Below are positions 16,975 through 60,530 of a DNA stretch of 64,000 nt, in pieces (positions within the stretch are counted from its first letter, which is position 1; each line of letters starts with the position of its first letter). The stretch lies in the NCBI GenBank assembly GCA_964016885.1, contig OZ024757.1:23622001-23686000 (forward strand). Direction: 5' to 3'. The DNA comes from Eledone cirrhosa. Taxonomy: Eukaryota. Position numbers and translations under genes: made by a program. Under the pieces are notes generated by a model that saw only the letters and a program-made list of their open reading frames with translations, was not told where the DNA came from and searched no databases.

Positions 16975-17943
16975 GAATTGTTTCTAATTTTGGCAAAAAG
17001 CCACCAATTATCCCAGTGCATTACTGGTACTTTATTTTATCGACCACCGTAAGGATTTAAAGGCAAAGTTAACCTTGGCAGGATTTTAACTCAGACTATA
17101 AAGGGATGTAACTCTATGCTGAAAAACATGGCGTCTGACCCTCTACCGATACTGCCAATCCACCACCCTATGAAGACAAATATTAATGATAATAATAATA
17201 ATTGTTTCTACTTTTGGCACAAGGCCAGCAATTTCCCAGTGCATTACTGGTACTTTATTTTATCGACCACCGTAAGGATTTAAAGGCAAAGTTAACCTTG
17301 GCAGGATTTTAACTCAGACTATAAAGGGATGTAACTCTATGCTGAAAAACATGGCGTCTGACCCTCTACCGATACTGCCAATCCACCACCCTATGAAGAC
17401 AAATATTAATGATAATAATAATAATTGTTTCTACTTTTGGCACAAGGCCAGCAATTTCCCAGTGCATTACTGGTACTTTATTTTATCGACCACCGTAAGG
17501 ATTTAAAGGCAAAGTTAACCTTGGCAGGATTTTAACTCAGACTATAAAGGGATGTAACTCTATGCTGAAAAACATGGCGTCTGACCCTCTACCGATACTG
17601 CCAATCCACCACCCTATGAAGACAAATATTAATGATAATAATAATAATTGTTTCTACTTTTGGCACAAGGCCAGCAATTTCCCAGTGCATTACTGGTACT
17701 TTATTTTATCGACCACCGTAAGGATTTAAAGGCAAAGTTAACCTTGGCAGGATTTTAACTCAGACTATAAAGGGGTGTAACTCTATGCTGAAAAACATGG
17801 CGTCTGACCCTCTACCGATACTGCCAATCCACCACCCTATGAAGACAAATATTAATGATAATAATAATAATTGTTTCTACTTTTGGCACAAGGCCAGCAA
17901 TTTCCCAGTGTATTACTGGTACTTTATTTTATCAACCCCATAA
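16975..17943 (-). repeat. Tandem array of SINE-B (unit about 223 bp, about 4.3 near-identical copies)
   Basis: cccagtgcattactgg recurs at about 17012, 17235, 17458 and 17682, with a 1-mismatch copy at about 17904. Confidence 0.9.
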
Positions 17944-19146
17944 GAAGAAGAAGAAAATGAAGAAAATGATGATGGCGAAGAAGATGAAGAAAAGATGATG
18001 ATGATGATGATGAAGTAAAGATGATGATGAAGAAAAGATGATGATGAAGAAGAAAAGATGATGATGATGATGAAAAGATGATGAAGAAAAGATAATGATG
18101 ATGAAGAAAAGATGATGATGATGAAGAAGAAATGATGATGATGATGAAGAAGAAAAGATGATGATGAAGAAAAGATGATGATGATGATGATGAAGTAAAG
18201 ATGATGATGAAGAAAAGATGATGATGAAGAAGAAAAGATGATGATGATGATGAAAAGATGATGAAGAAGAAAAGATGATGATGAAGAAAAGATGATGATG
18301 ATGATGAAGTAAAGATGATGATGATGAAGAAAAGATGATGATGAAGAAATTATGATGATGAAGAAATGATGATGATGATGAAATGATGATGATGATGAAG
18401 AAAAGATGATGATGATGAAGAAAAGATGATGATGATGAAGAAATGATGATGATGATGAAGAAATGATGATGATGAAGAAATGATGATGATGATGAAGAAA
18501 AGATGATGATGATGAAGAAAAGATGATGATGATGAAGAAAAGATGATGATGATGAAGAAAAGATGATGATGATGAAGAAATGATGATGATGATGAAGAAA
18601 TGATGATGATGATGAAGAAATGATGATGATGAAGAAATGATGATGATGATGAAGAAAAGATGATGATGATGAGGAAGAAAAGATGATGATGATGATGAAG
18701 AAATGATGATGATGAAGAAATGATGATGAAGAAAATATGATGATGAAGAAAAGATGATGATGATGAAATGATGATGATGATGAAGAAATGATGATGATGA
18801 TGAAGAAATGATGATGATGATGAAGAAATGATGATGATGATGAAGAAAAGATGATGATGATGAAGAAAAGATGATGATGATGAAGAAATGATGATGATGA
18901 AGAAATGATGATGAAGAAAAGATGATGATGAAGAAAAGATGATGATGATGAAATGATGATGATGATGAAGAAATTATGATGATGATGAAGTAAAGATGAT
19001 GATGATGATGAAGTAAAGAAGATGATAATGATGAAAATATGATAACGATGAAGAAAAGATAATGACGATGAAGAAAAGATAATGATGATGAAGAAAAGAT
19101 AATGATGGCGAAGAACTGATGATGAAGAAGAAAAGAAGGTGATGAC
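17944..19146. repeat. (GAT/GAA)n purine-rich cryptic repeat
   Basis: Runs of GAT interrupted by GAAGAAAA. Confidence 0.95.
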
Positions 19147-22375: not shown

Positions 22376-23454
22376 CTGTAAATGAGGTTGGTGTTAGGAA
22401 GGGCATCCAGCTGTAGAAATCAAGCCAGAATTCAGTTCCCATATGGGCAAGACATGGTCAGACGACCGGACACTGCCCACAACAGGACAACCCGTCTAAC
22501 CCATGCTTGCGTGGAAGAACGAACATAAAACGATGATGATGGACAATACTATTAGGACAGACATTGATCTAGAAGAGAGACATGAAATATAACCCGATAC
22601 AAATCTCTCTCATAGGAACATTGGAGAACTCCAAATAGACTGAGGAGGTTGTACACGGCTACGTCAGACGAAAAACACAAACCATCATCATCATCATCAA
22701 CGTTTAACATCCGTGTTCCACGCTTGCATGGGTTTGGACGGGGGTTTTCCCACTTGAGGCAAGAGTGGTTGTCTTGCTCGCATAGGACTGTCTGGCGGGT
22801 TTTCTACAGCTGGATGCCCTTCCTAACACCAACCACATTTACAGTGTGGGGCTGGGAGGTTTTTACCGTGTTGCCTACACGGCTACACGGGCGGAGGTGG
22901 TGAGAGCTGACCTCAGATCACTGAAGCTCACAGAGGAGATGACGAAGGACCGTGGCGAATGGAGAGATGTTGAATAGGATCTGTCCCACCCTTGCAAGCA
23001 GGGAAAAGCGGTAAAATGATGATAATGAATTGTGGTAATGATATAATAGTAATGATATAATGATATAAACCATAGAGAGGATAAACAATATTAAAAGCCT
23101 GATATGGAGTTCCAGCAAGTTCATAACACCCCCGTTTTCCCTCCTTTACCCCCAAAATATATTGGCTTTGTGCCTAACTAAATTAGCAATCATTTTTATC
23201 ACAACTGTTACCATTATTATATCATTACTACAGGGCGGTGGATTGGCAGTATCGGTAGAGGGTCGGACACTATGCTTTGACGCATAGAGTTACGCCCGTT
23301 GCCATTCTGAGTTCAAATCGTGCCAAGGTTAACTTTGCCTTTCATCCTTACAGGGTCGATAAAATAAAGTACCAGTAATGTACTGGGTAATTGCTGGCCT
23401 TGTGCCAAAAGTAGAAACAATTATTATATCATTACTATTATATCATTACCACAA

Positions 23455-24120: not shown

Positions 24121-24574
24121 CCATGAACATCATTATTACTGTTATGGTGGATTTACAGTATTGGTAGAGCATCAGGCACCATGTTTTACAGCAATCATGG
24201 GCAACCTGCAGCCAGCAAAGCTTTCTGATTTTTTTGCACCAACTTTTCAGTGGCAATTTATCTTTCTATTATTTTTACGGTCGAGAAAAACAATGTCTAC
24301 AAATTCTGAAGAAACAAATCAAAACAACCAGAGTTACCACCCTTTTTTTTAATGTGGGCATGAATGTAAATTAGCACTTGTGGCCTGACTGATGATGAGC
24401 GGCCCGCTTCTCGAAAAAGGTTGCCCTGCTTTACAGCATAGAGTTGTGGCCCTTTATATTCTGAGTTCAAATCCCACCGAGGTTAACTTTGCCTTTCATC
24501 CTTATGGGGTCAATAAAATAAAGCACCAGTAATACACTGGAGTAATTATTGGCCTTGTGCCAAAAGTAGAAACA

Positions 24575-25920
24575 ATTATTACTATTACATCATTACCACT
24601 ATTACATCATTACCACTATTACATCATTACCACTATTACATCATTACCACTATTACATCATTACCACTATTACATCATTACCACTATTACATCATTACCA
24701 CTATTACATCATTACCACTATTACACCATTACCACGGGTATATCATTACCACTATTACATCATTACCACTGGTATATCATTACCTCTATTACATCATTAC
24801 CACTATTGCATCATTACCACTATTGCATCATTACCACTATTACATCAATACTGCTATTACATCATTACCACTGGTATATCATTACCACTGGTATATCATT
24901 ACCTCTGTTATATCATTACTATATTATTACCACCATTATAAGGGCAGTGAATTGGCAGTATCGGTAGAGGGTCGGACATGCTTTCCAGCATAGTTACGTC
25001 CCTTTACGTTCTGAGTTCAAATCCCGCCGAGGCTAACTTTGCCTTTCATCCTTACGGGGTCGATAAAATAAAGTACTAGTAATGTACTGGGTAATTGCTG
25101 GCCTTGTGCCAAAAGTAGAAACAATTATTACCACCATTATATCATTACCACCATTATATCATTACTATATCATTACCACCATTATATCATTACTATATCA
25201 TTACCGCCATTATATCATTACTATATCACTACCACCATTATATCATTACTATATCATTACCACCATTATATCATTACTATATCATTACCACCAGTATATC
25301 ATTACTATATCATTACCGCCATTATATCATTACTATATCATTACCACCATTATATCATTACTATATCATTATCACCATTATATCATTACTATATCATTAC
25401 CACCGTTATATCATTACTATATCATTACCACCATTATATCATTACTATATCATTTCCACCATTATATCATTACTATATCATTACCACCATTATATCATTA
25501 CTATATCATTACCACCATTATATCATTACTATATCATTACCACCATTATATCATTACTATATCATTACCACCATTATAACATTACTATATCATTCCCACC
25601 ATTATATCATTACTATATCATTACCACCATTATATCATTACTATATCTTTACCACCATTATATCATTACTATATCCTTACCACCATTATATCGTTACTAT
25701 ATCATTATCACCATTATATCATTACTATATCATTACCACCATTATATCATTACCACCATTATATCATTACTATATCATTACCACCATTATATCATTACTA
25801 TATCATTACCACCATTATATCATTACTATATCATTACCACCATTATATCATTACTATTATATCATTACCACCATTATATCATTACTATTATATCATTATT
25901 ACTATGGTATCATTACCACC
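24575..25920. repeat. ATT/ATC/ACC-based short tandem repeats extending from SINE-B tails
   Basis: cattaccactattacat-type units, interrupted by a SINE-B at about 24940-25130. Confidence 0.9.
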
Positions 25921-26129
25921 TTTTTACATGCTCCTTCCAATGGATTGAGGGTATTATCATTATCATGTCCTTCCTCGGGATTGATCTTAATTCCTCTCAA
26001 CTCTAATTTTAGTCAAGATGGTGGACCACATCCAGTGGGCTTAGGTATCAGGACATGTTTCCTTCTTTTTAGTTTATAATCCAATAACTTTCATCTTATC
26101 CTAACCATTTCAAACAAACAAGGTATTTT

Positions 26130-27030
26130 TCTATAGAGGTTTAGTGATGGGCAAAAATGACAATGTTCTTGGGAAAACTCTTAGGGGGTCAATGAAAATC
26201 AACAGTTCAGGTCCCATGGATAACTTCCAGAAATCTCTTGCCTGGCAGTACTACCGAGGAAGTTCCAAGAAACTCTACACTCGTGGAAATGCCATCAGCC
26301 GGTCCTGTCCGAGATGCACTGAGGGTGATGACAAAACCATCCTGCACACACTCGTTGAGTGTCTGAGCATTGCTGACTTGTAGGTTTATTTTCAACACTT
26401 GCTTTCACATGTGGAGCAGATCCAACAATCAATTGAATCCATTGTGAAGGTCACTCCACCATTTTTCTCTAGAGGGGAAAGACAAGCAGTGTTTATTCAT
26501 CTGGTGGCCAATGCAAAAGGGTTTGTGAGGTGGACGTGCTTGAAATGGTTGAAAACAAGGACTTTCCTCTTCAGCAAAGCCCTAATTAACTTTTTCAGGG
26601 TTCACCTGAAGAGAAAACTCAGCGTGGAGAGGGAAATACTGCCTTCCAACCAGTTTGTGAAAAGGTGAGTGGGGAAAGGTGAACATAGTCTGGGCTTGCT
26701 CTGAGTATGTGCCTGTAAATTGGAGGAGGACAACAGAGAGGGCACTGGCCCTAGCGGCCAAGGTTACTGTGGCGTTTTGTGGGCTTTCTCCATAAGTGAT
26801 CCTTTTAGGGAATTTGTTACGTTTTGTGTTTTTAAATGTTTATTCTTTATAAACCTTTCCCTCACACAAAAACCCCCATACTGTACCATCCTGCACAGTC
26901 TTTATTGTCCTCTTAATATAAGCCCTGTGGGGTTAATAAAGAAACTATTATAATTTTTATTATTATTATTATTATTATTACTATTATTATTATTATTATT
27001 ATTACTATTATCGTCATTATTATTATTACT
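26130..27030 (+). pseudogene. 5'-truncated, decayed Tx1-type LINE (ORF2 C-terminus, 3' UTR, (ATT)n tail)
   Basis: Peptides GPMDNFQKSLAWQYYRG, CPRC and INFFRVHLKRKLSVEREIL align with the ORF2 C-terminus. Stops are present. Ends AATAAAGAAAC then (ATT)n. Confidence 0.9.
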
Positions 27031-35527: not shown

Positions 35528-36061
35528 ATGATAATGCTTCTACTTTTGGCACATGGCCAGCAATTACCCCAGTGCATTACTGGTGCTTTATTTTATAGAC
35601 CCCATAAGGATGAAAAGCAAAGCTAACTTCAGTGGGATTTGAACTCAGAAAATAAAGAGCCATAACCATGCAGCAAAGCATAGTGTCTGACGCTCTACCG
35701 ATACTGCCAAACCACAGCCCTTTATATAATAACAAGGCCAGCAATTACCCAGTCCACATTACTGGTACTTTATTTTATCGACCTTGTAAGGATGAAAGAC
35801 AAAATTAACTTCAGCGGGATTTGAACTCAGATCGTAAAGGGACGTAACTATGCTGGAAAGCATGTCCGACCCTCTAACCGATACTGTCAATTCAATAATT
35901 GTTTCTTCGTTAGGCACAAGGCCAGCAATTGGAAAGTTGATTAAATCAACCCCTGTGCATAACTGGTGCTTTGATTTACCATACTTGCTGGCCTATTGGA
36001 CACATCTTCGTATAGGACGCCCCTGGTTTTACAAGGACATATTGAAAAAAAAAGTATTTAA

Positions 36062-40940: not shown

Positions 40941-42471
40941 GGTGGACTTAATTTGCTTTGAATGCATGGCAGCCATCATGGATTAAGACAGTCAGTCACT
41001 GTCCTTAACCCTTTTGTTTAAAACTGTTCATTTTAAAGTGTTTACTTTAATGTATGAAGCTCTCATTGTAATTTTATGTAAAAACTTTTGTCAAGTTATG
41101 TTCCAAATACCAGGGTGATAATGGTTTCTGATTTAGGCACAAGGCCAACAATTTTGAGGGAGGAGAAAGTCGATTAAATCGACCCAAGTGTGTTGGTGGC
41201 AATTTATTTTATCGACCCCCATAAAGATGAAAAGTAAAGTTAATCTCGACAGGATCAGAACTCAGAACGTAAAGGGACGTAACTATATGCTGCAAAGCAA
41301 GTTGACCAATGCTCTACCGATACTGCCAATCCACCACCCTAATCCCCAGCTTAATAATGACAAAAGTCTGTTATATTACTAAATTCCTGAATATTTAACT
41401 ATATTTTCTAATGAAATACACTGCTTATATGTTTCAATTAATTTTGAAAATCACCAAAAAATTTAGAGGAATTTAATAAAATAACTAAGTTTTGCATTAG
41501 TAATCTGATAAAGTGTCTATGTTTATGTATAAACCTGCCATCATAATTTTATGTTAGACATTTTGTCAAGTTATGTTCCAAACACCACCTTAATAATAAC
41601 AAAGTTTACTATGTTACTAAATTCCTCTAAATTCCTGAGCATTTCATTATATTTCTAATGAAATATACTGCCAATATGTTGCAATTAATTTTGAAAATCA
41701 GCAAAAATTTGAAGGAATTTAATAAAATAACTATATATATATATATATATATTTTTTTTTCTTCATTAGTAAGCTGATGTATAGAACACTACTTAAATAT
41801 TTCTAAAATAAAATTGTGATGGAAGGTTTTAATATAAGGGTAAACAAGACTGAGCAGTTTTGTGAAGGAGCATGGCCTAATGGTTAGGATCTTGACAAAG
41901 GATCTTAATGTCCTCAGTTCAATCTATGGACAGGCTGCTGTGTTGTGTTCTTGAGCAAAATACCTTATTTCACATTGCTCCAAGTACACCCAGCCGAGAT
42001 GAGTACGAGCAGTAGCTGGAGAGTTAAACCTGCGATTGACTAGTGTCCTGTCCAGGGAGAGTCTTGTACTCTCAGTTGCTTAACACCAAGGAAACCGGGA
42101 ATAAGCATGGGCCTGATGACCACAGAGTTATCTTGTTCCTATCACCATTTTGTTTCATCTATATACCATCTCATCCTTTATATGTTCATCCTTTTACTTC
42201 TGTCTGGTTCGATAAAATAAAGTACCAGTAATACACTGGGATAATTGCTGGCTTTGTGCCAACACTAGAAACAATTATATCTGTGGATTGGCAGTATCGG
42301 TAGAGAGTCGGGTACCATGCTTTGCAGCATAGAGTTATGGCCCTTTATAGTCTGAGTTCAAATCCCGCCGAGGTTAACTTTGCCTTTCATCCTTACGGGG
42401 TTGATAAAATAAAGTACCAGTAATGTACTGGGGTCGATTTAATCGACTTTCCCCTCCCCCAAATTCCTGGC

Positions 42472-42516
<45 letters not shown>

Positions 42517-44425
42517 GTTCAAATATTCATTTATTATGGCTAGGTAATGAGTCTTGTTACTCTGCAGTTTCACCTGGACACCTGCAGGATCATCGGACAA
42601 GATCATCATCATCATCATCATTTTACGTCTGCTTGCAAGGGTGGGACGGGAACTGATTCTGGCTTGATTTCTACAGCTGGATGCCCTTCCTAACACCAAC
42701 CTCATTTACAGTGAGTGCTGGGTGCTTTTTCGTGGCGCCTACACGTCCACTTTACAGTGTGGGCTGGGTGCTTTTTTTGCCGTGGCACCTCCACGACCAC
42801 CTTGCGGTGGGGGGTGTGGGGGCATATTGTCTATATATATATGCTAATTCAAAATATTAACAAAAATAGACATTTGTGTGATCAAGTATATTTTATTATA
42901 CATATTTCAGTATGGGCTGGGTGCTTTTTTGTTGTGACACCTACGCATCAACTTTACAGTGTGGGCTGGGTGCTTTTTTTGCCATGACACCTCCACGACC
43001 ACTTTACAGTGGAATGATATGGACCCCAGTCCCTATCATCTCATTTCTACAGCTGAGTAAACTGGAGTAATGTGAAATAAAGTGTCTTGTTCAAGGAAAC
43101 AACACATCACCCGGTCTGAGAGTTGAACTCACCTCTCGATTTCAAGGCCAATGCTCTAACCACTAAGCCATGTACCTCCATGGATATATATATATATATA
43201 TATACAAACATACATACACACACATATATGTGTGTGTATGTATGTTTGCATATATACACACACACAAACATACACACATACATACATATATACACACAAA
43301 GTGTAAACACCCAAATCTTCCTATCCTATTACCACGATGCTGTAATGTGTATGATATGTTGGTATGATCTTTTCTTGTCACTTCTTACTAACTAAATTCA
43401 GTTCTCCTGTTCAATATTCCTCTGTAGTGGTTCAATTGCAGCAGGTTTTCTAAGACCTGATTCAGACCATCATACCTCTGTTCATTTCTGTCGACTTGGC
43501 ACAACAACAAGTTGCAGTCTTTTGTGTTTTTTTTCACTTTTTTTTTTTTTTTTTTTTTTTGCATGTGTTTATTGACTCCCAAAAAGATGAAAGGAAAAGT
43601 CGATACGGCAGAATTGAAATTCAGATGTAAATTAGAGTGAATACATCAATGAATTTAGTCCAGTAGATAGTAGAAATTAGTCATCTATCTGACTGGCAAA
43701 TCTTTACTTTTACTAACACTCTACAGACAGTAGTATACAGACGTGACCTTTCGTGTTCCCTGTTTCATAAAATATCTGTCTATATGCTATGGTATGTTAG
43801 AGAAAGTAATACACATTAAAACACAGGTTTTATTGCTCTTCATTCGGTGGATTGGCAGTATCGGTAGAGGGTCGGACGCCATGCTTTCTAGCATAGTTAC
43901 GTCCCTTTACGATCTGAGTTCAAATCCCGCCAAGGTTGACTTTGCCTTTCATCCTTACGGGGTTGATAAAATAAAAGTACCAGTAATGCACTGGGTAATT
44001 GCTGGCCTTGTGCCTAAAGTAGAAACAATTATTATATACATATAAGGGCGGTGGATTGACAGTATCGGTAGAGGGTCGGACGCCATGCTTTGACGCATAG
44101 AGTTACGGCCCTTGCCATTCTGAGTTCAAATCCTGCCGAGGTTAACTTTGCCTTTCATCCTTACAGGGTCGATAAAATAAAGTACCAGATAAAATAAAGT
44201 ACCACTGGGATAATTGCTGGCCTTGTGCCAAAAATAGAAACAATTATTCTATACATATAAAGGGTGGTGGAATGGCAGTATTGGAAGAACATCGGACAAC
44301 GTGCTTTACAGCATTCCTTTATGTTCTGAATTCAAATCCTACCGAGATTAACTTTGCTTTTCATATAACAGGTTCGATGAAATAAAGTACCAGTAACACA
44401 CTGGAGTAGATTTAACCCTTTAGCA

Positions 44426-45228
44426 TTTACATTACTCTATATATACTATTGTATTTTCACAGTAAAGGCTTTACCTCACATAATTATCTCACATAAAATT
44501 TACATTACTCTATATATACTATTGTATTTTCACAGTAAAGGCTTTATCTCACATAATTATCTCACATAAAATTTACATTACTCTATATATACTATTGTAT
44601 TTTCACAGTAAAGGCTTTACCTCACATAATTATCTCACATAAAATTTACATTACTCTATATATACTATTGTATTTTCACAGTAAAGGCTTTACCTCACAT
44701 AATTATCTCACATAAAATTTACATTACTCTATATATACTATTGTATTTTCACAGTAAAGGCTTTACCTCACATAATTATCTCACATAAAATTTACATTAC
44801 TCTATATATACTATTGTATTTTCACAGTAAAGGCTTTACCTCACATAATTATCTCACATAAAATTTACATTACTCTATATATACTATTGTATTTTCACAG
44901 TAAAGGCTTTACCTCACATAATTATCTCACATAAAATTTACATTACTCTATATATACTATTGTATTTTCACAGTAAAGGCTTTATCTCACATAATTATCT
45001 CACATAACATTTACATTACTCTATATATACTATTGTATTTTCACAGTAAAGGCTTTATCTCACATAATTATCTCACATAACATTTACATTACTCTATATA
45101 TACTATTGTATTTTCACAGTAAAGGCTTTATCTCACATAATTATCTCACATAACATTTACATTACTCTATATATACTATTGTATTTTCACAGTAAAGGCT
45201 TTACCTCACATAATATCTCACATAACAT
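44426..45228 (+). repeat. 73-bp tandem satellite, left part (about 11 units)
   Basis: Unit ttacattactctatatatactattgtattttcacagtaaaggctttacctcacataattatctcacataaaat. Confidence 0.95.
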
Positions 45229-45439
45229 CTCGTATACGAGAGACGTGTGTTGACGTGTGTGAACAAGCTCGGCTACCGAGTCGGATTTACTTACTCAAAA
45301 AGTGAGTTTTGATTAATTTTTTTATACTGTAATATACGTTAACCCCTTGCCTTGGTCGTCAAACTTTGAGTTTATTTATTTTCGCCCCTTTTTGGGGCGA
45401 ATTTTCCAGTTAAAAATTTATTACGGCAAACTAATAGAA

Positions 45440-47182
45440 ATGGACGGAATTTTCACATCTCATCCTAACGTGAAAGCCACGCCCCCTAAGAAAGGTGATA
45501 CAGAGAAGCTAGAAGCACAAGGCTCTAAGTCTTCCCTCCTCACTTCTGCAAAAGAAACATGGAACACGGAATTAAAAGAAAAATTTGTAGAAATGGGTGA
45601 AAACCCAGAAAGTCACATAAACGCAGACAAAAACATCAACGACAATAACAGCAATAGTCACAACACCAACCAAGGAAAAAATAACGATAACACCAAACAA
45701 AGTGAACCCACTACTGGTACCTCCTTTGCACAGGCGGTCCGGAAAACACAAACCTGCAAGCAACTGGACATTACAACTCTGAGAGAAAAGATGAAGGAAG
45801 CGAAACAGTATGTAACTTTCAAAGAAGGAGGAGACTTCACAATCACCTCCCCACAAGAAATCAAAAGAGACACGACGCTAAGAACGATATCTTTCAGAAC
45901 AATTTCCAACATAACAAGGAAACCAACTCAATTATCCCAAAAAGAGATTGAGCTGGTCCTAAAAAATGTGTGGAGTGATATATCGTTCATACAAAAAGGG
46001 CCACTCTATGGGAATATAACGGTCCTAATGAAGGATCAATTGACGGCCAGGAAATACTCTGTGGCACCAATTGTTTCCAAGATATATACATTTTTCCCCA
46101 CATATTTAGGGAAAAGAACGCAGAAGATAAGGGTCTCCGGAATCCGGCCAAATGCATGCATTTCCTGGGTACTAACAGGATTTTTAGAAGACGAGGACGG
46201 AATCCTCTCAGTAGGAGAAGTCACCACAGACGTTTTCGGCGGTTTGAGCGTGGAGGTTCTGGTCCAAATGAGACCAGAACGAATCGCTAGAATACCACAG
46301 AGGGTGTCCCTCGATGGAGAAACATTTATATATATTTCAGCCGAGGGTAGGAGGCCCATATGTTACTACTGTTCAAGCAGGGGTCATCTAAGGGCTGCTT
46401 GTCCTCAATTGACAAAAAAAAAGGCTCTTTTGCCTACACCCCACACACCACCACCGCCACCACCACCACCACCACCACCTCCACCACCACCACCACAACA
46501 ACAACAAAAACAACAGGGAAAAATAACACAAGACACGGCCCCACCCAAAACAACTCCCAAAACACACACAAATACAACAAAACCCCAAAATACACCACTA
46601 CCTGACAGCACGGACGAGGACCCAGCGGAAACGGCACCTAGTGACGAAGAGGGGGAACCCTTCCAACCTGTAAAAAGGAAAAAAAGAAAGCACCACTCGA
46701 ACATAAACGAAACAAACACACAACCACCAACAAAAACAAAACAAACAGAACAAACAAAATCCGCCCCACCCCAAAACATAACACATACAACAAAACGTAA
46801 GCACACACAAGAACAACAAACAAACACAACACAAATAAAACAGTATACATACATTAACACAAATAACAAAGAACTAGTAAAAACAATACACAAAGACCCT
46901 TTGGTGGAAACTGAAGGGCAATTCTTTGCAAGCGCGGCCAACAAACCGCATTTAAAAATGATAAGACTCCCAATGGACACCTATGCAAAACTAAGAGAGA
47001 ACTTTCCTGAGGACGTGGGGAAAACATGTACTCGACCCTATAACCGCGTCCTCTTGAAACGTTTCCCCACCCACACCTCACCAAACACCCCCACTCCACC
47101 ACAGAACAACACCCCACCAAACAACCCCTCCAATACGCCCATGGATATTGTGCAACCTGCTCCTCAGGAGCCGAACAGGTAG
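45440..47182 (+). CDS. LINE ORF1, gag-like nucleic-acid-binding protein (about 580 aa from the first ATG)
   Basis: CX2CX4HX4C knuckle CYYCSSRGHLRAAC, poly-Pro/Gln linker and a basic KRKKRK patch. The track starts at TTG 45347; the first ATG is at 45440. Confidence 0.88.
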   Translation: MDGIFTSHPNVKATPPKKGDTEKLEAQGSKSSLLTSAKETWNTELKEKFVEMGENPESHINADKNINDNNSNSHNTNQGKNNDNTKQSEPTTGTSFAQAVRKTQTCKQLDITTLREKMKEAKQYVTFKEGGDFTITSPQEIKRDTTLRTISFRTISNITRKPTQLSQKEIELVLKNVWSDISFIQKGPLYGNITVLMKDQLTARKYSVAPIVSKIYTFFPTYLGKRTQKIRVSGIRPNACISWVLTGFLEDEDGILSVGEVTTDVFGGLSVEVLVQMRPERIARIPQRVSLDGETFIYISAEGRRPICYYCSSRGHLRAACPQLTKKKALLPTPHTPPPPPPPPPPPPPPPPQQQQKQQGKITQDTAPPKTTPKTHTNTTKPQNTPLPDSTDEDPAETAPSDEEGEPFQPVKRKKRKHHSNINETNTQPPTKTKQTEQTKSAPPQNITHTTKRKHTQEQQTNTTQIKQYTYINTNNKELVKTIHKDPLVETEGQFFASAANKPHLKMIRLPMDTYAKLRENFPEDVGKTCTRPYNRVLLKRFPTHTSPNTPTPPQNNTPPNNPSNTPMDIVQPAPQEPNR

Positions 47183-47203
47183 GTCCTTCCTCTTTTAACC
47201 AAC

Positions 47204-50200
47204 ATGGCTGATATAAGAGTTGGGTTTCTGAATGTACGTGGCCTGGGACTGTCTTGGAAACAAGGCAAACTTTTAAACGATCTCAGGTCACATAGAATGG
47301 ATGTAATGGCTATTTGCGAGTCCAGGATCAGCAGCGAGCACCAACTGGCGCCCCTCTTCGACGACTTTGAGATCTTCGCATCTCTCTGTCAACCGGGGGG
47401 TGGGGGTGGAGTTGTCGTTCTGCTGCGAAAACACCTGGGCCTCGCCATACAGAAGGTGCACCTGGACCCGGAGGGTCGACTGGTGGTTTTAGACGTCGGC
47501 AGTAGTGAAAGTGGAGCCCTTAGACTAATAGCTGTGTACGCCCCTTTTTGGGCAGCGCGGCCGGAATACTTCCAACGTCTGGAAACTTTTCTGGGAACGT
47601 CCCGCTCCTTGCTTTTAGTGGGGGACTGGAATGGTATCCTGGATGCACGTTGGGACTATGTAGGGGCATGTGCCAATAGAGGGGGGTGTAAAAGCCTCAA
47701 AAGGTTAATCGGCCGATTTGACCTGGCCGATAGATATCGACTAGATTTTCCGACTGTACCACTATGGACGTGGACCAATCGCAGTGGAACATCTAGGTCG
47801 TACCTAGATAGGGTCCTAGTTAGAGAGAACGATAGGGACACATTTAGCTGTCCAAAAATGTTCATGGTTGACTATTCGGATCACAAGTTAGTGACCTGCA
47901 TAGCCAACCTTGATAGAACCCATAGACAGGGACCCGGTTACTGGAAGCTGAACTTGTCCTTACCGAGAAGCAAAGCTTACAGTAAACGGATTAGCACGTT
48001 AGTTAAGCAGAATTTGACAGGGGCAATTGTCAACAACAGGTGGTGGAGCTCTCTTAAGAGAGCAATTAGAATAGAATCGATAGGTTTTAGTCAGGAATTA
48101 GCAAGGGATAGGAACAAGACGGAAAGGGAATTAGTAGATAGAGTAGAAGAGGCGATTAGGAGTGGCAATGTAGCCGGCGTGCTGGCATCAAGAATGGCCT
48201 TAGACCAGTTCTTTGAGGTGAAGCATGAAGGCTGCGTTGTCAGGAGTAAAATACGTGCTCTGGGTAATGAGGGAGCCAAAGCTGTAAGCTGGGCCCGAGT
48301 GACAGAGGCAAAAAGTGGGAACAAGTCCACGATTCGGTCTTTGAAGGACCAGGATGGGCGTGTGATCCTTGAACCTGGGCAGATGTGTGCGGCCTTTCAG
48401 CGGCACTTTGCACGACTGTTCGAGAGGGGCGGCGCGCCGGGTGAGACTATGGATTTCAATCCATACCTCGACGGTCTGCCGCGCCTCTCGGACGCGGAGG
48501 CGAAGTCCTGCGAAAGGACGATTTCAGCTGCTGAGATAGGGGCGGCGCTGAGCCAATGCGGCAAACGCAAATCCCCGGGTCTCGATGGTCTACCATACGA
48601 GCTATATGTAGCGATGCCGGACTTGTTCTCCGATATCCTCGAAGCGGTCTACTGCAACTGGCAGCAGAACGGGAGAATTCCCAGTTCTGTGACCAAGGGC
48701 GTAGTTACGCTGGTGAGGAAGGATGAGAACAAGGGGGATGACATAAGTAACTTCAGGCCCATAACTCTGCTAAATACAGAGTTAAAGATTTTGGCCAAGG
48801 TGTTAGCGAAGAGGTTGGCGCTTGTCGTTGGAAACCTGGTGGGAGAAGCGCAGACATGCGCAATCCCGTCCAGGTCCATTCACGACAATCTCCACCTTAT
48901 GCGATACATCATAGAGAGGGTAGGGAATGAACCCGGCTTTGGTGGGGCCCTGATCAACTTGGATCAATCTAAAGCTTTCGATAGGGTTGACCATCGTTAC
49001 CTGGATGCGGTGCTCGCGGCGGCAGGCTTCGGACCCGTTTTCAGGGGTTGGATTGCTGCGATGCACAGCAGCAACGTCTGCTCAAGGGTCAAGGTGAACG
49101 GCCACCTCTCGGAGCCGTTCCAAATCATGCGATCCATCCGACAGGGATGCCCTCTCTCCTCCCTACTGTATGTGCTGGCTCTTGAGCCACTACTGCGGAA
49201 GTTGGAGCGGTTGCAGGGCATCCCTTTGGAACCGGGATTGCAGAAAGCGGCGTCGGCCTACGCCGATGACGTGACAGTAATGGTGTCGAAAACCTCGCAA
49301 ATCGGTGAGATCGGCACCTTACTGGAGGAATATGAAAGGTTTACAGGAGCCAAGCTGAACCGGGACAAGTCCGTCGGTTTGCAACTCGGAACATGGAGAG
49401 GCAAACCGATGCCCTCCAACGACGTCGTCGGACGCTGGACGGAGGGCCCGGTGAAGCTGCTTGGGGTCTGGTTCGGACCAGACCTCCAGGTGGAGAAAAA
49501 CTGGAACGAGGTAACGGCCAGGGTGTTTGCACTCACCCAGAAGTGGGCCCAGTGCAAACTATCCCTGAAAGGTCGAGCGGAGGTGGCGAATACTTATATA
49601 GCATCCGTCATCTACTACCGCTTGACCGTCGTGCCTTGCCCAGTGAAAAGACTCGCCAAAATGGAGTGCGCGCTGTTCCAATTTCTTTGGAACAAGCGGA
49701 CCCCTTTGGTGAGGAGATCCATCTGCTGTCAACACCCTTCGAAAGGAGGGCTGGGGATGCCGTGGCTACAGATGCGTAAACACGCATTAAGGCTACGGCA
49801 CCTCCAGGTATTCCTCACCGGTCAACCGGTGTGGGCCCCGTTTGTGAGGCGAGCCTTTCCCAGACTCGTCTCGCTCACCGAGCTGCAATCCTGGGTCAAG
49901 CAAAGACCGAGAAAAGTGGGCGACTGGCACATTGAATGTGCCCAGGCGCTCACGGCCCTCTGGAAAGCGGACCCGGCAATCAGTGGAGACTCCACCTCGA
50001 CATTTTATAGAGGGTTGGTACGCAGCAGGTGCGACGATGCTCTCGGAGAAGCTCTAGGCATGGAGGAAGATGAACTGGCCAGTCTGTTCGGTAGGACGTT
50101 TGGCCCTGGACCGATGGACAACTTCCAAAAGTCCCTGGCTTGGCAGTGCTACCGAGGGGCTCTACCCGTTCGAGACAAGCTCCACAGGCATGGGAGCCTG

Positions 50201-50641
50201 GGTAGAGATCCTTTGAATAAGATCTGTCCGAGATGCGTGCATGATGACGAAACCGTTGCGCACGCATTCGTACACTGCCCAGGCATTGCTGACCTGTGGG
50301 GCTATGTGGAACGACTACTGTCGAGGGTGGGACCAATCCGGTTGACCACCGAGTCCATTGTCACGATCAAACCGCCTCCCCCTTTCAAAAACGAAGGAGA
50401 GGCGGTTTTTCTCTGTGTGGTAGCCATGGCTAAAGAAGTTGTATGGTGGACGAGGCTGAAAGGGCTGAGGTCAGACACCTTTCTCTCCGGCCAACAACTG
50501 GTCCCCTTTTTCAAATACCATTTTAAAAGAAGGATCAGAATGGAGAGAGAGGTGCTCTACCCCAGCAAGTTTTATGAAAGGTGGGTGAAAGTAGGGAGAA
50601 TGGCCAGAGTGAATGGGTCTTCTCTCTATATCAGCCTGTAG
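47204..50641 (+). CDS. LINE ORF2: APE endonuclease, reverse transcriptase and C-terminal Cys/His finger (1145 aa)
   Basis: Endonuclease motifs NVRG, VYAP, GDWN, LDRVLV, SDH. RT motifs KSPGLDG, RPITLLN, DQSKAFDRVDH, RQGCPLS, YADD. C-terminal CPRC...HAFVHC. GGLG and WKLN motifs are typical of L1/Tx1. Confidence 0.97.
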   Translation: MADIRVGFLNVRGLGLSWKQGKLLNDLRSHRMDVMAICESRISSEHQLAPLFDDFEIFASLCQPGGGGGVVVLLRKHLGLAIQKVHLDPEGRLVVLDVGSSESGALRLIAVYAPFWAARPEYFQRLETFLGTSRSLLLVGDWNGILDARWDYVGACANRGGCKSLKRLIGRFDLADRYRLDFPTVPLWTWTNRSGTSRSYLDRVLVRENDRDTFSCPKMFMVDYSDHKLVTCIANLDRTHRQGPGYWKLNLSLPRSKAYSKRISTLVKQNLTGAIVNNRWWSSLKRAIRIESIGFSQELARDRNKTERELVDRVEEAIRSGNVAGVLASRMALDQFFEVKHEGCVVRSKIRALGNEGAKAVSWARVTEAKSGNKSTIRSLKDQDGRVILEPGQMCAAFQRHFARLFERGGAPGETMDFNPYLDGLPRLSDAEAKSCERTISAAEIGAALSQCGKRKSPGLDGLPYELYVAMPDLFSDILEAVYCNWQQNGRIPSSVTKGVVTLVRKDENKGDDISNFRPITLLNTELKILAKVLAKRLALVVGNLVGEAQTCAIPSRSIHDNLHLMRYIIERVGNEPGFGGALINLDQSKAFDRVDHRYLDAVLAAAGFGPVFRGWIAAMHSSNVCSRVKVNGHLSEPFQIMRSIRQGCPLSSLLYVLALEPLLRKLERLQGIPLEPGLQKAASAYADDVTVMVSKTSQIGEIGTLLEEYERFTGAKLNRDKSVGLQLGTWRGKPMPSNDVVGRWTEGPVKLLGVWFGPDLQVEKNWNEVTARVFALTQKWAQCKLSLKGRAEVANTYIASVIYYRLTVVPCPVKRLAKMECALFQFLWNKRTPLVRRSICCQHPSKGGLGMPWLQMRKHALRLRHLQVFLTGQPVWAPFVRRAFPRLVSLTELQSWVKQRPRKVGDWHIECAQALTALWKADPAISGDSTSTFYRGLVRSRCDDALGEALGMEEDELASLFGRTFGPGPMDNFQKSLAWQCYRGALPVRDKLHRHGSLGRDPLNKICPRCVHDDETVAHAFVHCPGIADLWGYVERLLSRVGPIRLTTESIVTIKPPPPFKNEGEAVFLCVVAMAKEVVWWTRLKGLRSDTFLSGQQLVPFFKYHFKRRIRMEREVLYPSKFYERWVKVGRMARVNGSSLYISL

Positions 50642-50878
50642 GTGAAAGAAGAGGAAAAAGCGGAGACGAGGGAAGCACCTACTCTTTGTGCTCCTGAGGA
50701 GAAGGGTTACACATTTTTTCCGGGGTGTGTGCGACCCATGTTAATGCCCCCTCCCTATTGAGGACTTCGTTTGTTGTTGTTATTTCATTGTTATATTTTT
50801 GTACTCGTTAATTATATGTAAACTTCCCCCCTTGTATCTGTCCCTACCTTTTGTGCCCTAGTGGCAAATAAAGAAACC

Positions 50879-51880
50879 ACTCTATATATACTATTGTATT
50901 TTCACAGTAAAGGCTTTACCTCACATAATTATCTCACATAACATTTACATTACTCTATATATACTATTGTATTTTCACAGTAAAGGCTTTATCTCACATA
51001 ATTATCTCACATAAAATTTACATTACTCTATATATACTATTGTATTTTCACAGTAAAGGCTTTACCTCACATAATTATCTCACATAACATTTACATTACT
51101 CTATATATACTATTGTATTTTCACAGTAAAGGCTTTATCTCACATAATTATCTCACATAACATTTACATTACTCTATATATACTATTGTATTTTCACAGT
51201 AAAGGCTTTATCTCACATAATTATCTCACATAACATTTACATTACTCTATATATACTATTGTATTTTCACAGTAAAGGCTTTATCTCACATAATTATCTC
51301 ACATAACATTTACATTACTCTATATATACTATTGTATTTTCACAGTAAAGGCTTTACCTCACATAATTATCTCACATAACATTTACATTACTCTATATAT
51401 ACTATTGTATTTTCACAGTAAAGGCTTTATCTCACATAATTATCTCACATAAAATTTACATTACTCTATATATACTATTGTATTTTCACAGTAAAGGCTT
51501 TATCTCACATAATTATCTCACATAACATTTACATTACTCTATATATACTATTGTATTTTCACAGTAAAGGCTTTACCTCACATAATTATCTCACATAAAA
51601 TTTACATTACTCTATATATACTATTGTATTTTCACAGTAAAGGCTTTATCTCACATAATTATCTCACAACATTTACATTACTCTATATATACTATTGTAT
51701 TTTCACAGTAAAGGCTTTATCTCACATAATTATCTCACATAACATTTACATTACTCTATATATACTATTGTATTTTCACAGTAAAGGCTTTATCCCACAT
51801 ATCTCACATAACATTTACATTACTCTATATATACTATTGTATTTTCACAGTAAAGGCTTTATCCCACATATCTCACATAA
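50879..51880 (+). repeat. 73-bp tandem satellite, right part (about 14 units)
   Basis: The same unit resumes immediately after the LINE 3' end. Confidence 0.95.
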
Positions 51881-52137
51881 TATCGAATCTATGAGATTTT
51901 GATATTATTTATTTTGAGAACAATACCTTAAGTTGGTTTGAACAGAAAAATGTGTGAAAATTCTGGCTGGATACGACCAGTTTAAATACTAAAGGGTTAA
52001 TTAACTTTCCCTTCCTCTAAAATTGTTGGCCTTGTGCCTAAATCAGAAACCCTTATTCTATACACACAGAGTAGAAATTATTCATCTATCTGGCTGTCAA
52101 ATCTTCACTTTTACTAACACACTGCATCTACAAGTAC

Positions 52138-52254: not shown

Positions 52255-52896
52255 AGCATTAAGTTTTTAATGGTGGTGCCCCAGCATGGTCTCAGAGTGA
52301 CAATAAAAAAAAAAGAGTGAAACCTAGGTGCTGTAAGCAGCATTAAGTTTTTAATGGTGGTGCCCCAGCATGGTCTCAGAGTGACAAAAAAAAAAAAAAG
52401 AGTGGCAGAATCGGCAGAGCGTCGGGCAATATACTTTGCAGCATCAAGTTATATCCTTGTATGTTCTGAGTTCAAGTTCCACCAAGGTTAGCTTTGCATT
52501 CTTCCTTACGGAGTCAATAAAATAAAGTACCCATTATGCACTGGGCCGATTTAATTGACTTTCTCCTTTCCTAAAATTGTTGGCCTTGTGCCTAAATCAG
52601 AAACCATTATTCTATCCATAGATAGTAAAAATTACTCATGTATTTGACTGTCAAATCTTTACTTTTACTAACATATTACAGACACTAATACACAAATGTA
52701 GTGTATTCTTCCACTGTCTCTTCTTGCACAATTAAAATAGTTCTTGCTTCTTTAATCTAACAGTTTTTGTACCATCCACCCACCCACTAAATCTACCCAA
52801 TGTACCTGACACTAGAAATAGACCTCCCTAGAAATAATAAATCCACAGCGAAACAGGTGTATTTGACTGATGAAAATGTAAATTTAACCAAATTTT

Positions 52897-57704: not shown

Positions 57705-58847
57705 AGGACAGGAACCTTCTTCTCCAACCAAGAGCTCATCAACTTCTTCAAGTTGCCTTTGAAGAGGAAGGTGAGGGTAGAGAGGGAGGTGCTGCCTTCT
57801 AGTGTTTTATAAAAGATGGCTGAGAGTGGCGAAACTGGTACAACTGAATGGGGTCGAATCTGACTAGACCTTTCTAAGTTGGAGCAAGGAATCTAGGAGA
57901 AGGTACTTTCAACACCTGTGAAGTAACAGAATAATCCAGGACTTTGTGTGGCGGTTCTCCCTGTAATTACCCTAAAGTACAGTCCCCCATTATTGGGAAA
58001 CATGCCCTTGTTGACATTTATTGTTTATTTCTATTGTTATATTTATTACAATTTCTATTGTTGTTATTTCTACTGTTTTCTCTTCAGTAATGTCCCCTTT
58101 ACATGATGTAAACCTCACTGGGTTGTGTTGACCCTGTATTGTCCCTGTCTTCAATAATGTCCCCTTTCCTTTACGTAAACCTCATTCTGTGTTGTGTTGA
58201 CCCTGTATTGTCCCTGCCTCCAGTAATGTCCCCTTTACATGATGTAAACCCCACTGTGTTGTGTTGACCCTGTATTGTCCCTGTCTTCAGTAATGTCCCC
58301 TTTACATGATGTAAACCTCACTGTGTTGTGTTGTCCGTCTTCAGTAATGTTCCCTTTACATAATTGTTTCTACTTTTGGCACAAGGCCAGCAATTACCCA
58401 GTGCATTACTGGTACTTTATTTTATCGACCCCGTAGGGATGAAAGGCAAAGTTAACCTCGGCGGGATTTGAACTCAGAATGGCAAGGGCCGTAACTCTAT
58501 ACGTCAAAGCATGGCGTCCGACCCTCTACCGATACTGCCAATCCACCTTTACATAATGTAAGCCTCACTGTGTTGTGTTGTCCCTCTATTGTCCCTGTCT
58601 CCAGTAATGTTCCCTTTACATGATGTAAACCCCACTCTATGTTGTGTTGACCCTGTATTGTCCCTGTCTCCAGTAATGTCCCCTTTCCTGTACATGATGT
58701 CAACCTCACCCTGTGTTGTGTTGTCCCCCTATTGTCCGTCTTCAGTAATGTCCCCTTACCTTGATGTAAACCCTACTCGGTGTTGTCTTTGTCCCTGTAT
58801 TGTCCCTAATGTCTTGGGCCCTTGTGGCCAATAAAAGGAATCATTAT
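57705..58847 (+). pseudogene. Third Tx1-type 3' relic, with a tandemly amplified 3' UTR (units of about 55-60 bp)
   Basis: TFFSNQELINFFKLPLKRKVRVEREVL, then a frameshift, then KRWLRVAKLVQLNG; matches the ORF2 end. Terminates in GGCCCTTGTGGCCAATAAA. Confidence 0.75.
58365..58545 (-). mobile_element. SINE-B inserted in the Tx1 relic 3' UTR, with a 12-bp TSD
   Basis: CCTTTACATAAT at 58353-58364 and 58546-58557. Confidence 0.8.
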
Positions 58848-60530
58848 CACTGTTTTCTTCACGTCAACTATTTGTAGTATATAAAGAAACCTAATGTCCC
58901 TGCCCTCCTTTTAATATAACTTTGTCCAGCCCCTCATGTATTGTAACCCTGTGTGTTGTTTACTGTGTTTCTATATGCAAGCTCTGGTGTAAAACCCACA
59001 AAACCACACACACGGGCACACACACACAATGTTTTGTCTTGTGCCGTCCTTAATGTTTTCTTCACGTGAATCCATTGTGGTTACTTAAGAATTTATTATT
59101 AGAGGGTGGTGGATTGACAGTATCGGTAGAGCGTCGGACAATATATTTCGTGGCATATAGTTACGGAGTTGATAAAATAAAGCACCAGTAATGCACTGAG
59201 GTCGATTTAATAAACTTTCCCTTCCTTCGAATTCTGCTTCTTACCCAAATCATGTCAAGTGTCAACCTGACACCCGAGGCAAAGTCCGGTAATACACACA
59301 TTTTACGATCAATTGCCACACAAATGTTATAAAGGCACAAACAACAGTAAATGTCTTTGAAAGTTATTTAAATTGATAAAGCCCTTCTAAGGACATGGAC
59401 AGTGCCAGACAACGCTATTTTCAGTATCTCTTGCAGAGATTGTTTACCAGAAATATGGTTTATTGTTATTATTACGGATTGGCGGTGGATTGGCAGTATC
59501 GGTAGAGGGCCGGCCGTCATGCTTTGAAGCATAGAGTTACCTCCCTTTATGATCCGAGTTCAAATCCCGCCGAGGTTAACTTTGCCTTTCATCCTTACAG
59601 GCTCGATAAAATAAAGTACCAGTAATGCACTGGGATAATTGCTGGCCTTGTGCCTAACATAGAAACAATTATTACGGATTGGCGGTGGATTGACAGTATC
59701 GGTAGAGGGTCGGACGCCATGCTTTGACGTATAGAGTTACGGCCCTTGCCATTCTGAGTTCAAATCCCGCCGAGGTTAACTTTGCCTTTCATCCTTACGG
59801 GCTCGATAAAATAAAGTACCAGTAATGCACTGGTTAATTGCTGGCCTTGTGCCAAAAGTAGAAACAATTATTATGAATAAATAAATAAATAAAAAATAAA
59901 GAAAACATTATGTATTCTAGTATATGTTATTGAATGACAAATACAACTTCCCCACTACATCAGATTACGAACAATTTAAGCAGTTCCGAAAACCGATACC
60001 ACTGGTACTTTAAATGACTCTTTTAGAAACTCCGGAAATCAACAACAATTACATCTTTCCAGGCTTATTAAACATCGTCCTTAAAATGTATGCACTCTAA
60101 AACATGATGTTAATAATCCAGAACATCGTAATCTTACTAACAGTTCATTTCAGATTTCTTATTAATTCAATCAAGGTTATATCAGCTTTTGTTGGTGATC
60201 TGAGACAAATTCGAAATGGTGATAACCACCGTTGATATATGTGTAGACTGAGCATTAAAACATTGCCAAGAAAAAATAGTTTTACCAATAAAAAAATTAT
60301 CTATCCAAGATAAAATTCATGAGAGAAGAGAAAAGGGTGTGTGTGGTGTGTGGTGTGTGTCTGTGTGTGTCTCTGTGTGTCTGTGTGTGTCTCTGTGTGT
60401 GTGTGTGTGTGTGTCTGTGTGTGTCTGTGTGTGTCTGTGTGTGTGTGTGTCTGTGTGTGTGTGTGTCTGTGTCTCTGTGTGTGTCTCTGTGTGTGTGTCT
60501 GTGTGTCTGTGTGTGTGTCTGTGTCTGTGT

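What the first reader, a model, noticed from the sequence alone, without database searches (positions are those of the whole stretch)
50851..50878. SINE-B and the Tx1 LINE share a 3' stem-loop and terminus: candidate Tx1-dependent SINE
Seen: the LINE ends TGCC-CTAGT-GGCA aataaaGAAAC. Relic 3 ends GGCC-CTTGT-GGCC aataaa (58817-58835). Relic 2 ends GCCCTGTGGGGTT aataaaGAAAC (ATT)n. SINE-B ends TGGC-CTTGT-GCCA aaagtaGAAAC (ATT)n. The hairpin and loop are kept with compensatory stem changes. Known: stringent-type LINEs recognise a 3' stem-loop shared with partner SINEs, whereas mammalian L1 relies on poly(A). Inference: this L1/Tx1 family uses stringent recognition and drives the most abundant SINE here.
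Basis: partly seen in the sequence, partly recalled or inferred. Interest (0 to 1): 0.72.

Follow-up and report, generated by a model that had tools for sequence, protein, structure and literature searches.

The report
Tx1-tailed SINE sharing conserved 3' hairpin
A common short jumping element in this animal genome ends in the same tiny RNA hairpin as a Tx1-type (L1-group) retrotransposon family, which suggests that these L1 relatives recognise the RNAs they copy by that hairpin rather than by a poly(A) tail as human L1 does.

Summary
A matrix trained only on SINE-B tails ranks the LINE terminus (50854) first among non-SINE sites of ~128,000. The reverse matrix ranks 21 of 24 SINE tails directly behind its three training ends. 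All 40 close Tx1-type relatives from another genome (two deep families, one assembly) carry GGC-CTNGT-GCC just before AATAAA, the SINE-B core; 3 distant relatives lack it. No poly(A) follows the ends checked.

Corrections: (ATT)n is mostly the start of a 12-18 bp target-site duplication (9 of 17 events). The full-length LINE has neither ATT nor a duplication at its junction. Relic 2 folds out of register. Covariation rests on two stem positions, and the hairpin is no more stable than shuffles.

Best reading: a tRNA-type SINE with a Tx1-derived tail, moved in trans by this Tx1 lineage (probably not this copy's subfamily) through stem-loop recognition. Binding is inferred, not shown. Stringent L1-clade pairs are published for maize and Chlamydomonas. 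Ten literature searches found no animal Tx1/SINE pair with a shared tail; Repbase and Dfam were not available. New variant of a known kind.

The parts
45230..50878 (+). Full-length L1/Tx1-type LINE (5' end approximate), inserted in a 73-bp tandem array; no target-site duplication at the junction
45440..47182 (+). ORF1, 580 aa, CCHC knuckle at aa 307-323 (below Pfam cut-off); Atlas look-alikes are RRM/zf-CCHC and ZCCHC3-type clusters
47204..50641 (+). ORF2, 1145 aa, intact: endonuclease + RT + zf-RVT; nearest solved structure human L1 ORF2p (E 3e-53, against 3e-23 for R2)
50854..50866 (+). LINE terminal hairpin TGCC-CTAGT-GGCA
50867..50878 (+). AATAAA + GAAACC terminus, no poly(A)
26129..26945 (+). 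5'-truncated relic ('relic 2'): broken ORF2 C-terminus (44% aa to the LINE) + 3' UTR ending in an out-of-register hairpin, AATAAA, GAAAC, followed by ATT repeats
57705..58842 (+). 5'-truncated relic ('relic 3'): ORF2 end, 3' UTR with amplified 67-69 bp unit, hairpin GGCC-CTTGT-GGCC at 58817-58829, AATAAA, then ATTATCA
58844..58890 (+). Short extra Tx1-type 3' end ending in GAAAC (related to the next fragment, z 6.1; hairpin weak)
58891..59098 (+). Extra Tx1-type 3' UTR fragment, aligns with relic 2 UTR over 140 columns in terminal register (z 6.5); hairpin not predicted as MFE
1..713 (+). Tandem SINE-B short-form copies (4 tails) with a shared spacer / target duplication
2272..2320 (+). 5'-truncated SINE-B, 13-bp direct repeat starting ATTAT
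16980..17955 (-). 223-bp tandem array of SINE-B (5 tails)
23232..23418 (+). SINE-B short form, perfect 18-bp target duplication; A-box-like motif 23244-23255 and B-box-like motif 23309-23319 (read by eye against recalled consensus)
24419..24573 (+). 5'-truncated SINE-B, no duplication found
24941..25122 (+). SINE-B short form, perfect 18-bp target duplication
35536..35978 (-). Three adjacent SINE-B copies (two with tails, one of them long-form), no clear duplication
41124..41340 (-). SINE-B long form (extra ~28 bp with C-rich tract before the hairpin; ends GAAACC)
42193..42473 (+). Truncated short copy followed by a long-form copy cut inside the hairpin
43845..44241 (+). Two tandem SINE-B short copies separated by a 17-18 bp duplication
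44261..52050 (+). Long-form SINE-B split at TTAA (halves 44261-44417 and 51994-52050) by the MITE-like repeat that holds the LINE; 12-bp perfect flanking repeat
52400..52604 (+). SINE-B long form
58366..58547 (-). SINE-B short form inserted antisense in relic 3's UTR, 12-bp duplication starting ATTAT
59481..59865 (+). Two tandem SINE-B short copies, 13-16 bp duplication

Best explanation
SINE-B is a Pol III-type SINE whose last 25-40 nt came from the 3' end of a Tx1-type (L1-clade) LINE, and it is copied in trans by LINEs of that lineage. The shared signal is a 3-4 bp G/C stem closing a C-U-N-G-U loop, preceded by a pyrimidine tract. Steps: (1) transcription from internal A/B boxes into the flank (inferred); (2) ORF2p binds the stem-loop (inferred from conservation and from stringent LINEs such as ZfL2); (3) the endonuclease nicks just 5' of an ATTAT-type site (target preference shown by the duplications, nick inferred); (4) reverse transcription starts at GAAAC(A/C), probably with the read-through AUU pairing to the primer, with no poly(A) copied (junction sequence shown, pairing inferred); (5) a second nick 12-18 nt away gives the duplication (shown), and re-use of it yields tandem copies (inferred). 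The partner is probably an ATT-targeting sister subfamily, like the relics, rather than the intact copy at 45230-50878.
For: Reciprocal matrices. Pairwise tail alignments are best to two Tx1 ends (p 0.003-0.028) and not to 4 RTE, 2 other-SINE or 1 5S-element ends (p 0.12-0.99). Outside relatives (ORF2 40-44% identical): 40 of 40 carry GGC-CTNGT-GCC 18-22 nt before AATAAA (CTTGT 20, CTCGT 16, CTAGT 4), in two families only 55-56% identical in DNA. About 2.7e-4 such sites are expected per 1200 nt for the two-loop pattern. A matrix from those outside ends alone ranks four long-form SINE tails 1-4 of ~128,000 window sites. Hairpin-bearing elements fall in one clade (98/99) that excludes L040 and L041; L040, L041 and L044 have no such hairpin. 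Pair counts on 15 rows: 93% of cells paired, 2 of 4 pairs change on both sides (A-U/U-A/G-C and G-C/C-G), slid controls 27-58%. In 15 de-duplicated SINE copies the inner stem has 0 of 90 mismatches against 7.3% overall. Duplications in 9 of 17 events against 3 of 252 mismatched controls; 17-nt spacer in the outside arrays, also ahead of 5'-truncated copies. Longest A run after the end is at most 3 nt (24 SINE tails) or 4 nt (40 outside LINEs).
Against: No binding or retrotransposition data. Shared sequence is short (18 of 24), far weaker than the ~46-nt RTE/SINE tail in the same window, and no LINE with the exact SINE tail was found. Hairpin stability is not above shuffles. The number of covarying pairs is not beyond shuffles (130 of 500; 216 of 500). 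Stem invariance in SINE copies is only p 0.036 when invariant columns are allowed for, and tails were found by similarity. The intact LINE's junction has no ATT and no duplication. Whole-SINE versus whole-UTR alignment was not significant for the window LINE (p 0.12-0.995) or L001 (p 0.28-0.72); it reached p 0.01-0.05 in six of eight L003/L005 comparisons. The short tail also scored p 0.024 against the Dong-like end. The 40 outside loci come from one assembly and overlap, and the motif window was chosen after I saw the match. Outside LINEs add a second hairpin and lack GAAAC.
Confidence: 0.75

Rival explanations
1. The tail is Tx1-derived and the SINE is Tx1-mobilised, but the hairpin is not the ORF2p recognition signal. 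It may serve RNA 3' processing, stability or ORF1p/host-protein binding, with specificity coming from pairing of read-through AUU with the target.
For: In LINEs the hairpin lies 0-22 nt before AATAAA, where 3'-processing elements sit. It is small and weak. Crocodilian SINEUs are thought to be moved by Tx1-Mar without a shared tail (PMC4494074).
Against: The SINE lacks AATAAA yet keeps the stem, loop and GAAAC while the spacer between them varies (10 of 105 mismatches against 0 of 90 and 1 of 75). A Pol III transcript would not need a Pol II processing element (established knowledge).
Confidence: 0.14
2. SINE-B is moved today by another clade with ATT-type ends (L2 or CR1); the Tx1-like tail is a leftover or captured piece.
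For: An L2-tailed bivalve SINE consensus ends in ATT repeats (supplement of PMC4824008). No L2 or CR1 end could be compared. The intact LINE differs in stem order and junction.
Against: The Tx1-like part is the extreme 3' end, with no other LINE-like tail behind it. Long duplications of 12-18 bp match the relatives' 17-nt spacer. The Tx1 relics are followed by ATT.
Confidence: 0.08
3. The likeness is chance or convergence of short A-rich ends.
For: Short match; 3 of 300 shuffled windows reached the score somewhere; about 4 such loop-closing hairpins are expected per window by chance.
Against: The match is at the exact terminus of both elements, is reciprocal and recurs in two divergent outside families.
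Confidence: 0.03

Closest known systems
Maize/sorghum LINE1-1_ZM with ZmSINE2/ZmSINE3/SINE2_SBi (Ohshima 2012 PMC3472496; 2013 PMC3747384)
   Same: L1-clade LINE and tRNA SINE share a short 3' hairpin with variable stem, compensatory changes, conserved loop and conserved 3' flank; read as stringent recognition.
   Different: Plant L1 lineage; loop UCU and flank CGAG against loop CUNGU and flank GAAAC here; here an ATTAT target with 12-18 bp duplications; animal host.
Chlamydomonas L1-1_CR / SINEX-3_CR
   Same: L1-clade LINE sharing its 3' end with a tRNA SINE.
   Different: About 80 nt shared and both end in poly(A); here 24-40 nt and no poly(A).
Crocodilian SINEU / Tx1-Mar (Kojima 2015 PMC4494074)
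   Same: Tx1-mobilised SINEs, target preference, tandem copies sandwiching a duplication, both duplications and truncations of the target.
   Different: snRNA heads, poly(A) tails, and no LINE found sharing the SINEU-1 3' end; partnership inferred from targets only.
Stringent L2 pairs (ZfL2-1/ZfL2-2, UnaL2/UnaSINE; Hayashi 2014 PMC4176376)
   Same: ORF2p binds a 3' stem-loop through a region between EN and RT: the mechanism proposed here.
   Different: L2 clade, experimentally shown; no equivalent test here.
Octopus SINEs OR1, OR2, OK (Ohshima and Okada 1994; not seen)
   Same: The window looks octopod by my recall of its repeats (no call identifies the host), so SINE-B may be one of these described families.

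Membership tests
L1 clade (incl. Tx1) non-LTR retrotransposon | Two ORFs; ORF2 with AP endonuclease, RT and C-terminal CCHC finger | tested here: met
L1 clade (incl. Tx1) non-LTR retrotransposon | RT closer to L1 than to other clades | tested here: met
   L1 ORF2p 184 bits, R2 85 bits or less; only solved structures were compared
Tx1 group | RT phylogeny groups with named Tx1 elements (Tx1L, Keno, Kibi, Koshi) | not testable with these tools
   No named Tx1 reference was available; the tree holds unnamed relatives and three named plant proteins only
Tx1 group | ORF1 with RRM and CCHC knuckle rather than mammalian L1 ORF1 (feature recalled) | tested here: inconclusive
   zf-CCHC E 0.007, below cut-off; Atlas 0.90-0.92 to RRM/CCHC and ZCCHC3 clusters; no L1 ORF1 family hit
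Tx1 group | Target-sequence preference | tested here: inconclusive
   Relics followed by ATT, relatives in head-to-tail arrays; intact copy sits in a minisatellite without duplication
tRNA-derived SINE | Short interspersed repeat, variable 5' truncation, fixed 3' end, target duplications | tested here: met
tRNA-derived SINE | tRNA-related head with A and B boxes | tested here: inconclusive
   Box-like motifs by eye; ARAGORN and Rfam detect no tRNA there
Stringent SINE/LINE pair | 3' end of SINE homologous to 3' end of LINE | tested here: met
Stringent SINE/LINE pair | Conserved stem-loop with compensatory changes | tested here: met
   2 of 4 pairs change on both sides; few independent events
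Stringent SINE/LINE pair | Tail required for retrotransposition and bound by ORF2p | not testable with these tools
   needs an assay
Stringent SINE/LINE pair | Overlapping activity periods | not testable with these tools
   One intact LINE and relics only; SINE short copies mostly 88-94% alike, long form 75-81%
Relaxed (mammalian L1-type) mobilisation | Poly(A) tail at the 3' junction | tested here: not met
   0 of 24 SINE tails and 0 of 40 outside LINE ends; none after the three window LINE ends
CORE / Meta / other conserved-domain SINE superfamilies; OR1, OR2, OK | Shared central domain or family consensus | not tested
   Consensus sequences unavailable; a five-motif text search of one supplement gave no convincing match

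The most novel reading that the evidence does not exclude
The GGC/GCC-CUNGU stem-loop is the ancestral ORF2p recognition signal of a whole invertebrate Tx1 clade (kept across about 50% RT identity). That would be the first animal L1-clade case of stringent 3' recognition, and it would drive a major SINE expansion in this genome. If the host is an octopod (recalled, untested), that is a group where SINEs make up 11.6% of the O. vulgaris genome (PMC13282606). It would make the proposal that poly(A) recognition by mammalian L1 is a derived relaxation testable with a close animal relative.
Probability: 0.4. Interest if true: 0.75.

Novelty: new variant of a known kind. Interest (0 to 1): 0.58.

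Why it matters
[quoted passage not shown] An animal Tx1 lineage with a deeply conserved 11-nt stem-loop, a SINE that carries it and an intact two-ORF element gives a compact system for asking how L1-type enzymes moved between stringent and poly(A)-based recognition. It would also name the partner lineage of a very common SINE in this genome.

Tried and rejected
Poly(A)-dependent mobilisation: rejected, no A tails. RTE as partner: rejected; RTE relics share a different tail with another SINE family. Dong/R4-like relic as partner: one weak score (p 0.024, short tail only; p 0.39-0.41 with long forms), ends in (AAT)n, not adopted. (ATT)n as a pure element tail: rejected, since ATTAT or TTAT opens the 5' copy of most duplications. 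Folding energy as evidence for the hairpin: uninformative. A duplication for the intact LINE and for the two relics: none found; the first automated SINE test had a noisy control (42 of 380 scoring 11 or more) and was redone on 17 events with stricter anchoring. An inverted ORF1 piece upstream of relic 2: not supported. Rfam on the SINE: four chance-level hits only. 'TX1' in PMC4176376 names mutant proteins, not the clade. Names and hosts of the protein homologues stayed unchecked. Albertin 2015 and Gilbert and Labuda 1999 were not held. No structure or complex prediction was run; RNA cannot be the partner there.

Full report
Observation. The window holds one intact two-ORF element at about 45230-50878. 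ORF2 has endonuclease, RT and zinc-finger domains and is closest to human L1 ORF2p among solved structures. ORF1 has a CCHC knuckle and resembles RRM/CCHC proteins. The Tx1 label fits these features but could not be tested against named Tx1 elements. tblastn found two 5'-truncated relics, at 26129 and 57705. Two more fragments at 58844-59098 look like further 3' ends. SINE-B has 37 fragments by profile search and 24 complete tails. It occurs as a short form and as an older long form with about 28 extra bases, including a C-rich tract just before the hairpin.

Is the tail match real? A matrix trained on the 11 distinct SINE tails ranks the LINE terminus first among all non-SINE sites (18.9 bits). 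3 of 300 shuffled windows reached this anywhere, and 0 of 2,000,000 random sites did. A matrix trained on the three LINE ends ranks 21 of 24 SINE tails at places 4-24; the other three come at 30, 34 and 37. In pairwise tests three SINE tails match the intact LINE and relic 3 (p 0.003-0.028). They do not match relic 2 (p 0.13-0.74), four RTE ends, two ends of the other SINE family or the 5S-headed element. One weak score (p 0.024) arose against the Dong-like end. No L2 or CR1 end was available.

Outside evidence. One scan of genome contigs with an alignment of ORF2 and 14 relatives gave 45 loci. 41 lie on eukaryote-like contigs in one assembly and are head-to-tail arrays of LINEs with ORF2 40-44% identical to ours; one (L042) is cut by the contig end and was left out. 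All 40 others carry GGC-CTNGT-GCC 18-22 nt before the terminal AATAAA, with loops CTTGT (20), CTCGT (16) and CTAGT (4). The first loop is the SINE's; the last is the window LINE's. A C-rich tract precedes the hairpin as in long-form SINE-B. These loci are not independent: they fall into two deep families, 55-56% identical in DNA. A matrix from these ends ranks four long-form SINE tails first to fourth in the window and the LINE end 26th; the motif window was picked after the match was seen. Hairpin-bearing elements fall in one supported clade. Three distant elements (L040, L041, L044) have no such hairpin, and L040 ends in poly(A). L045 was not examined beyond a motif count. The outside LINEs have a second, variable hairpin and no GAAAC. 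SINE-B therefore shares the hairpin core with them and the spacing and GAAAC end with the window's LINEs.

Structure. On 15 aligned ends, 93% of cells pair and two of four pairs change on both sides; slid controls pair 27-58%. The count of covarying pairs is not beyond shuffles (130 of 500), the rows are related, and the SINE/relic 3 difference can be drawn as loss of one pair. The outer pair is broken in 9 of 24 SINE copies; the inner three never are. The hairpin is the predicted fold of short fragments of the LINE, relic 3 and SINE-B but is no more stable than shuffles. In longer fragments other folds win for both relics and one long-form copy. Conservation, not energy, is the evidence.

Insertion signature. 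Direct repeats flank 9 of 17 candidate SINE events against 3 of 252 mismatched controls. Eight are 12-18 bp and one is 23 bp through ATT expansion. Six begin ATTAT, and the rest begin TTATT or TATTT in imperfect repeats. So the ATT run is chiefly target sequence. In the outside arrays a 17-nt spacer follows AATAAA in the best-sampled family, also ahead of 5'-truncated copies (L007, L009). This fits a duplication of like length, but the outer array junctions were not seen. Both relics are followed by ATT. The intact LINE is not: it sits in a 73-bp array with 7 nt missing (or 66 nt repeated) and no ordinary duplication. No poly(A) follows the 24 SINE tails or the 40 outside ends. Tandem SINE copies may come from re-insertion at the duplication (as argued for SINEU-3) or from unequal recombination between duplications (PMC11481361).

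Mechanism. Most likely ORF2p of this lineage binds the CUNGU stem-loop, nicks at ATTAT-type sites and starts reverse transcription at GAAAC(A/C). SINE-B, which needs no AATAAA, keeps the stem, loop and GAAAC and varies in between. Homology, targets, duplications and the lack of poly(A) are shown; binding and the enzyme steps are inferred. The direct partner is probably a sister subfamily not represented intact here.

Literature, and what I saw. PMC3472496: passages. PMC3747384: passages and the full pair table. PMC4494074: parts 2-4 of 5. PMC4824008: passages, section 10, supplement part 1 of 4 and a motif search. PMC13282606: part 1 of 3 and a supplement search. Passages only: PMC4758252, PMC3531059 (supplement unavailable), PMC8967140, PMC4176376, PMC11481361 (Tx1 not mentioned), PMC5804259, PMC5786205 (Tx1 not mentioned), PMC11203168. 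Ten searches turned up no animal Tx1/SINE pair with a shared tail. The library lacks most subscription papers, Repbase and Dfam, and the SINEBase consensus files, where this SINE or its partner may already be recorded. That the host is an octopod, and the A/B-box consensus, are recalled and come from no call.

Verdict. A real and well-supported Tx1-type tail on an abundant SINE, with a hairpin conserved across distant families. It works like a stringent SINE/LINE pair; membership awaits a functional test. New variant of a known kind; interest 0.58.

Noticed in passing
window 44261-52050: Four-level nesting: a long-form SINE-B is split at TTAA by a MITE-like repeat with TTAACCCT ends (piggyBac-like, recalled; single copies at 12421-12619 and 36091-36284). 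Its 73-bp internal unit is amplified into two arrays around the LINE.
   Followed up: partly
window 52138-52400: 5S rRNA-like head (Rfam 69 bits) followed by about 50 nt of unique sequence and an A run, with an 84-bp partial duplicate; possible 5S-derived SINE or retrocopy.
   Followed up: no
window, e.g. 7725-8044, 23465-23874, 29855-30168, 35120-35520: RTE-like relics and a second SINE family share a ~46-nt tail ending in (ATG)n, often beside (AT)n: a separate, tighter LINE/SINE pair, 12 tails.
   Followed up: partly
L040:3036-3199 and 9961-10137: A distant L1/Tx1-type element ends in a short poly(A) joined to the 3' part of a U1 snRNA gene, with a complete U1 upstream: possible U1-targeting family.
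   Followed up: no
L001-L039, L042, L043: Contigs filed in a bacterial MAG consist largely of head-to-tail 6.4-kb LINE arrays with variable 5' regions and short spacers; they look like mis-binned eukaryotic DNA.
   Followed up: partly
L001-L039, L043 (3' UTR): A second hairpin between the conserved hairpin and AATAAA differs in sequence between subfamilies yet keeps its pairing.
   Followed up: partly
window 50671-50713 versus 47149-47190: The start of the LINE 3' UTR is 79% complementary over 43 nt to the ORF1/ORF2 junction, and relic 2 has a hairpin with a CTAGC loop at the matching place (26748-26762).
   Followed up: no
window 57480-57720 (-): Broken Dong/R4-like C-terminal coding piece (family recalled, not database-tested) directly abutting, in opposite orientation, the 5' end of relic 3.
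   Followed up: partly
window 23142-23186: Decayed long-form SINE-B tail just upstream of the 23232 copy.
   Followed up: partly
window 52070-52126 and 52620-52690: Two long-form copies share about 70 nt of 3' flank, suggesting an old local duplication or a shared target repeat.
   Followed up: no
window 24581-24919 and 25138-25888: 17-bp and 28-bp minisatellites begin right after SINE-B tails and resemble the target duplication, as if the duplication seeded the array.
   Followed up: no
window 10642-11064: 140-aa open frame resembling a Tc1/mariner transposase fragment (recalled; no Pfam hit at E 0.001).
   Followed up: no
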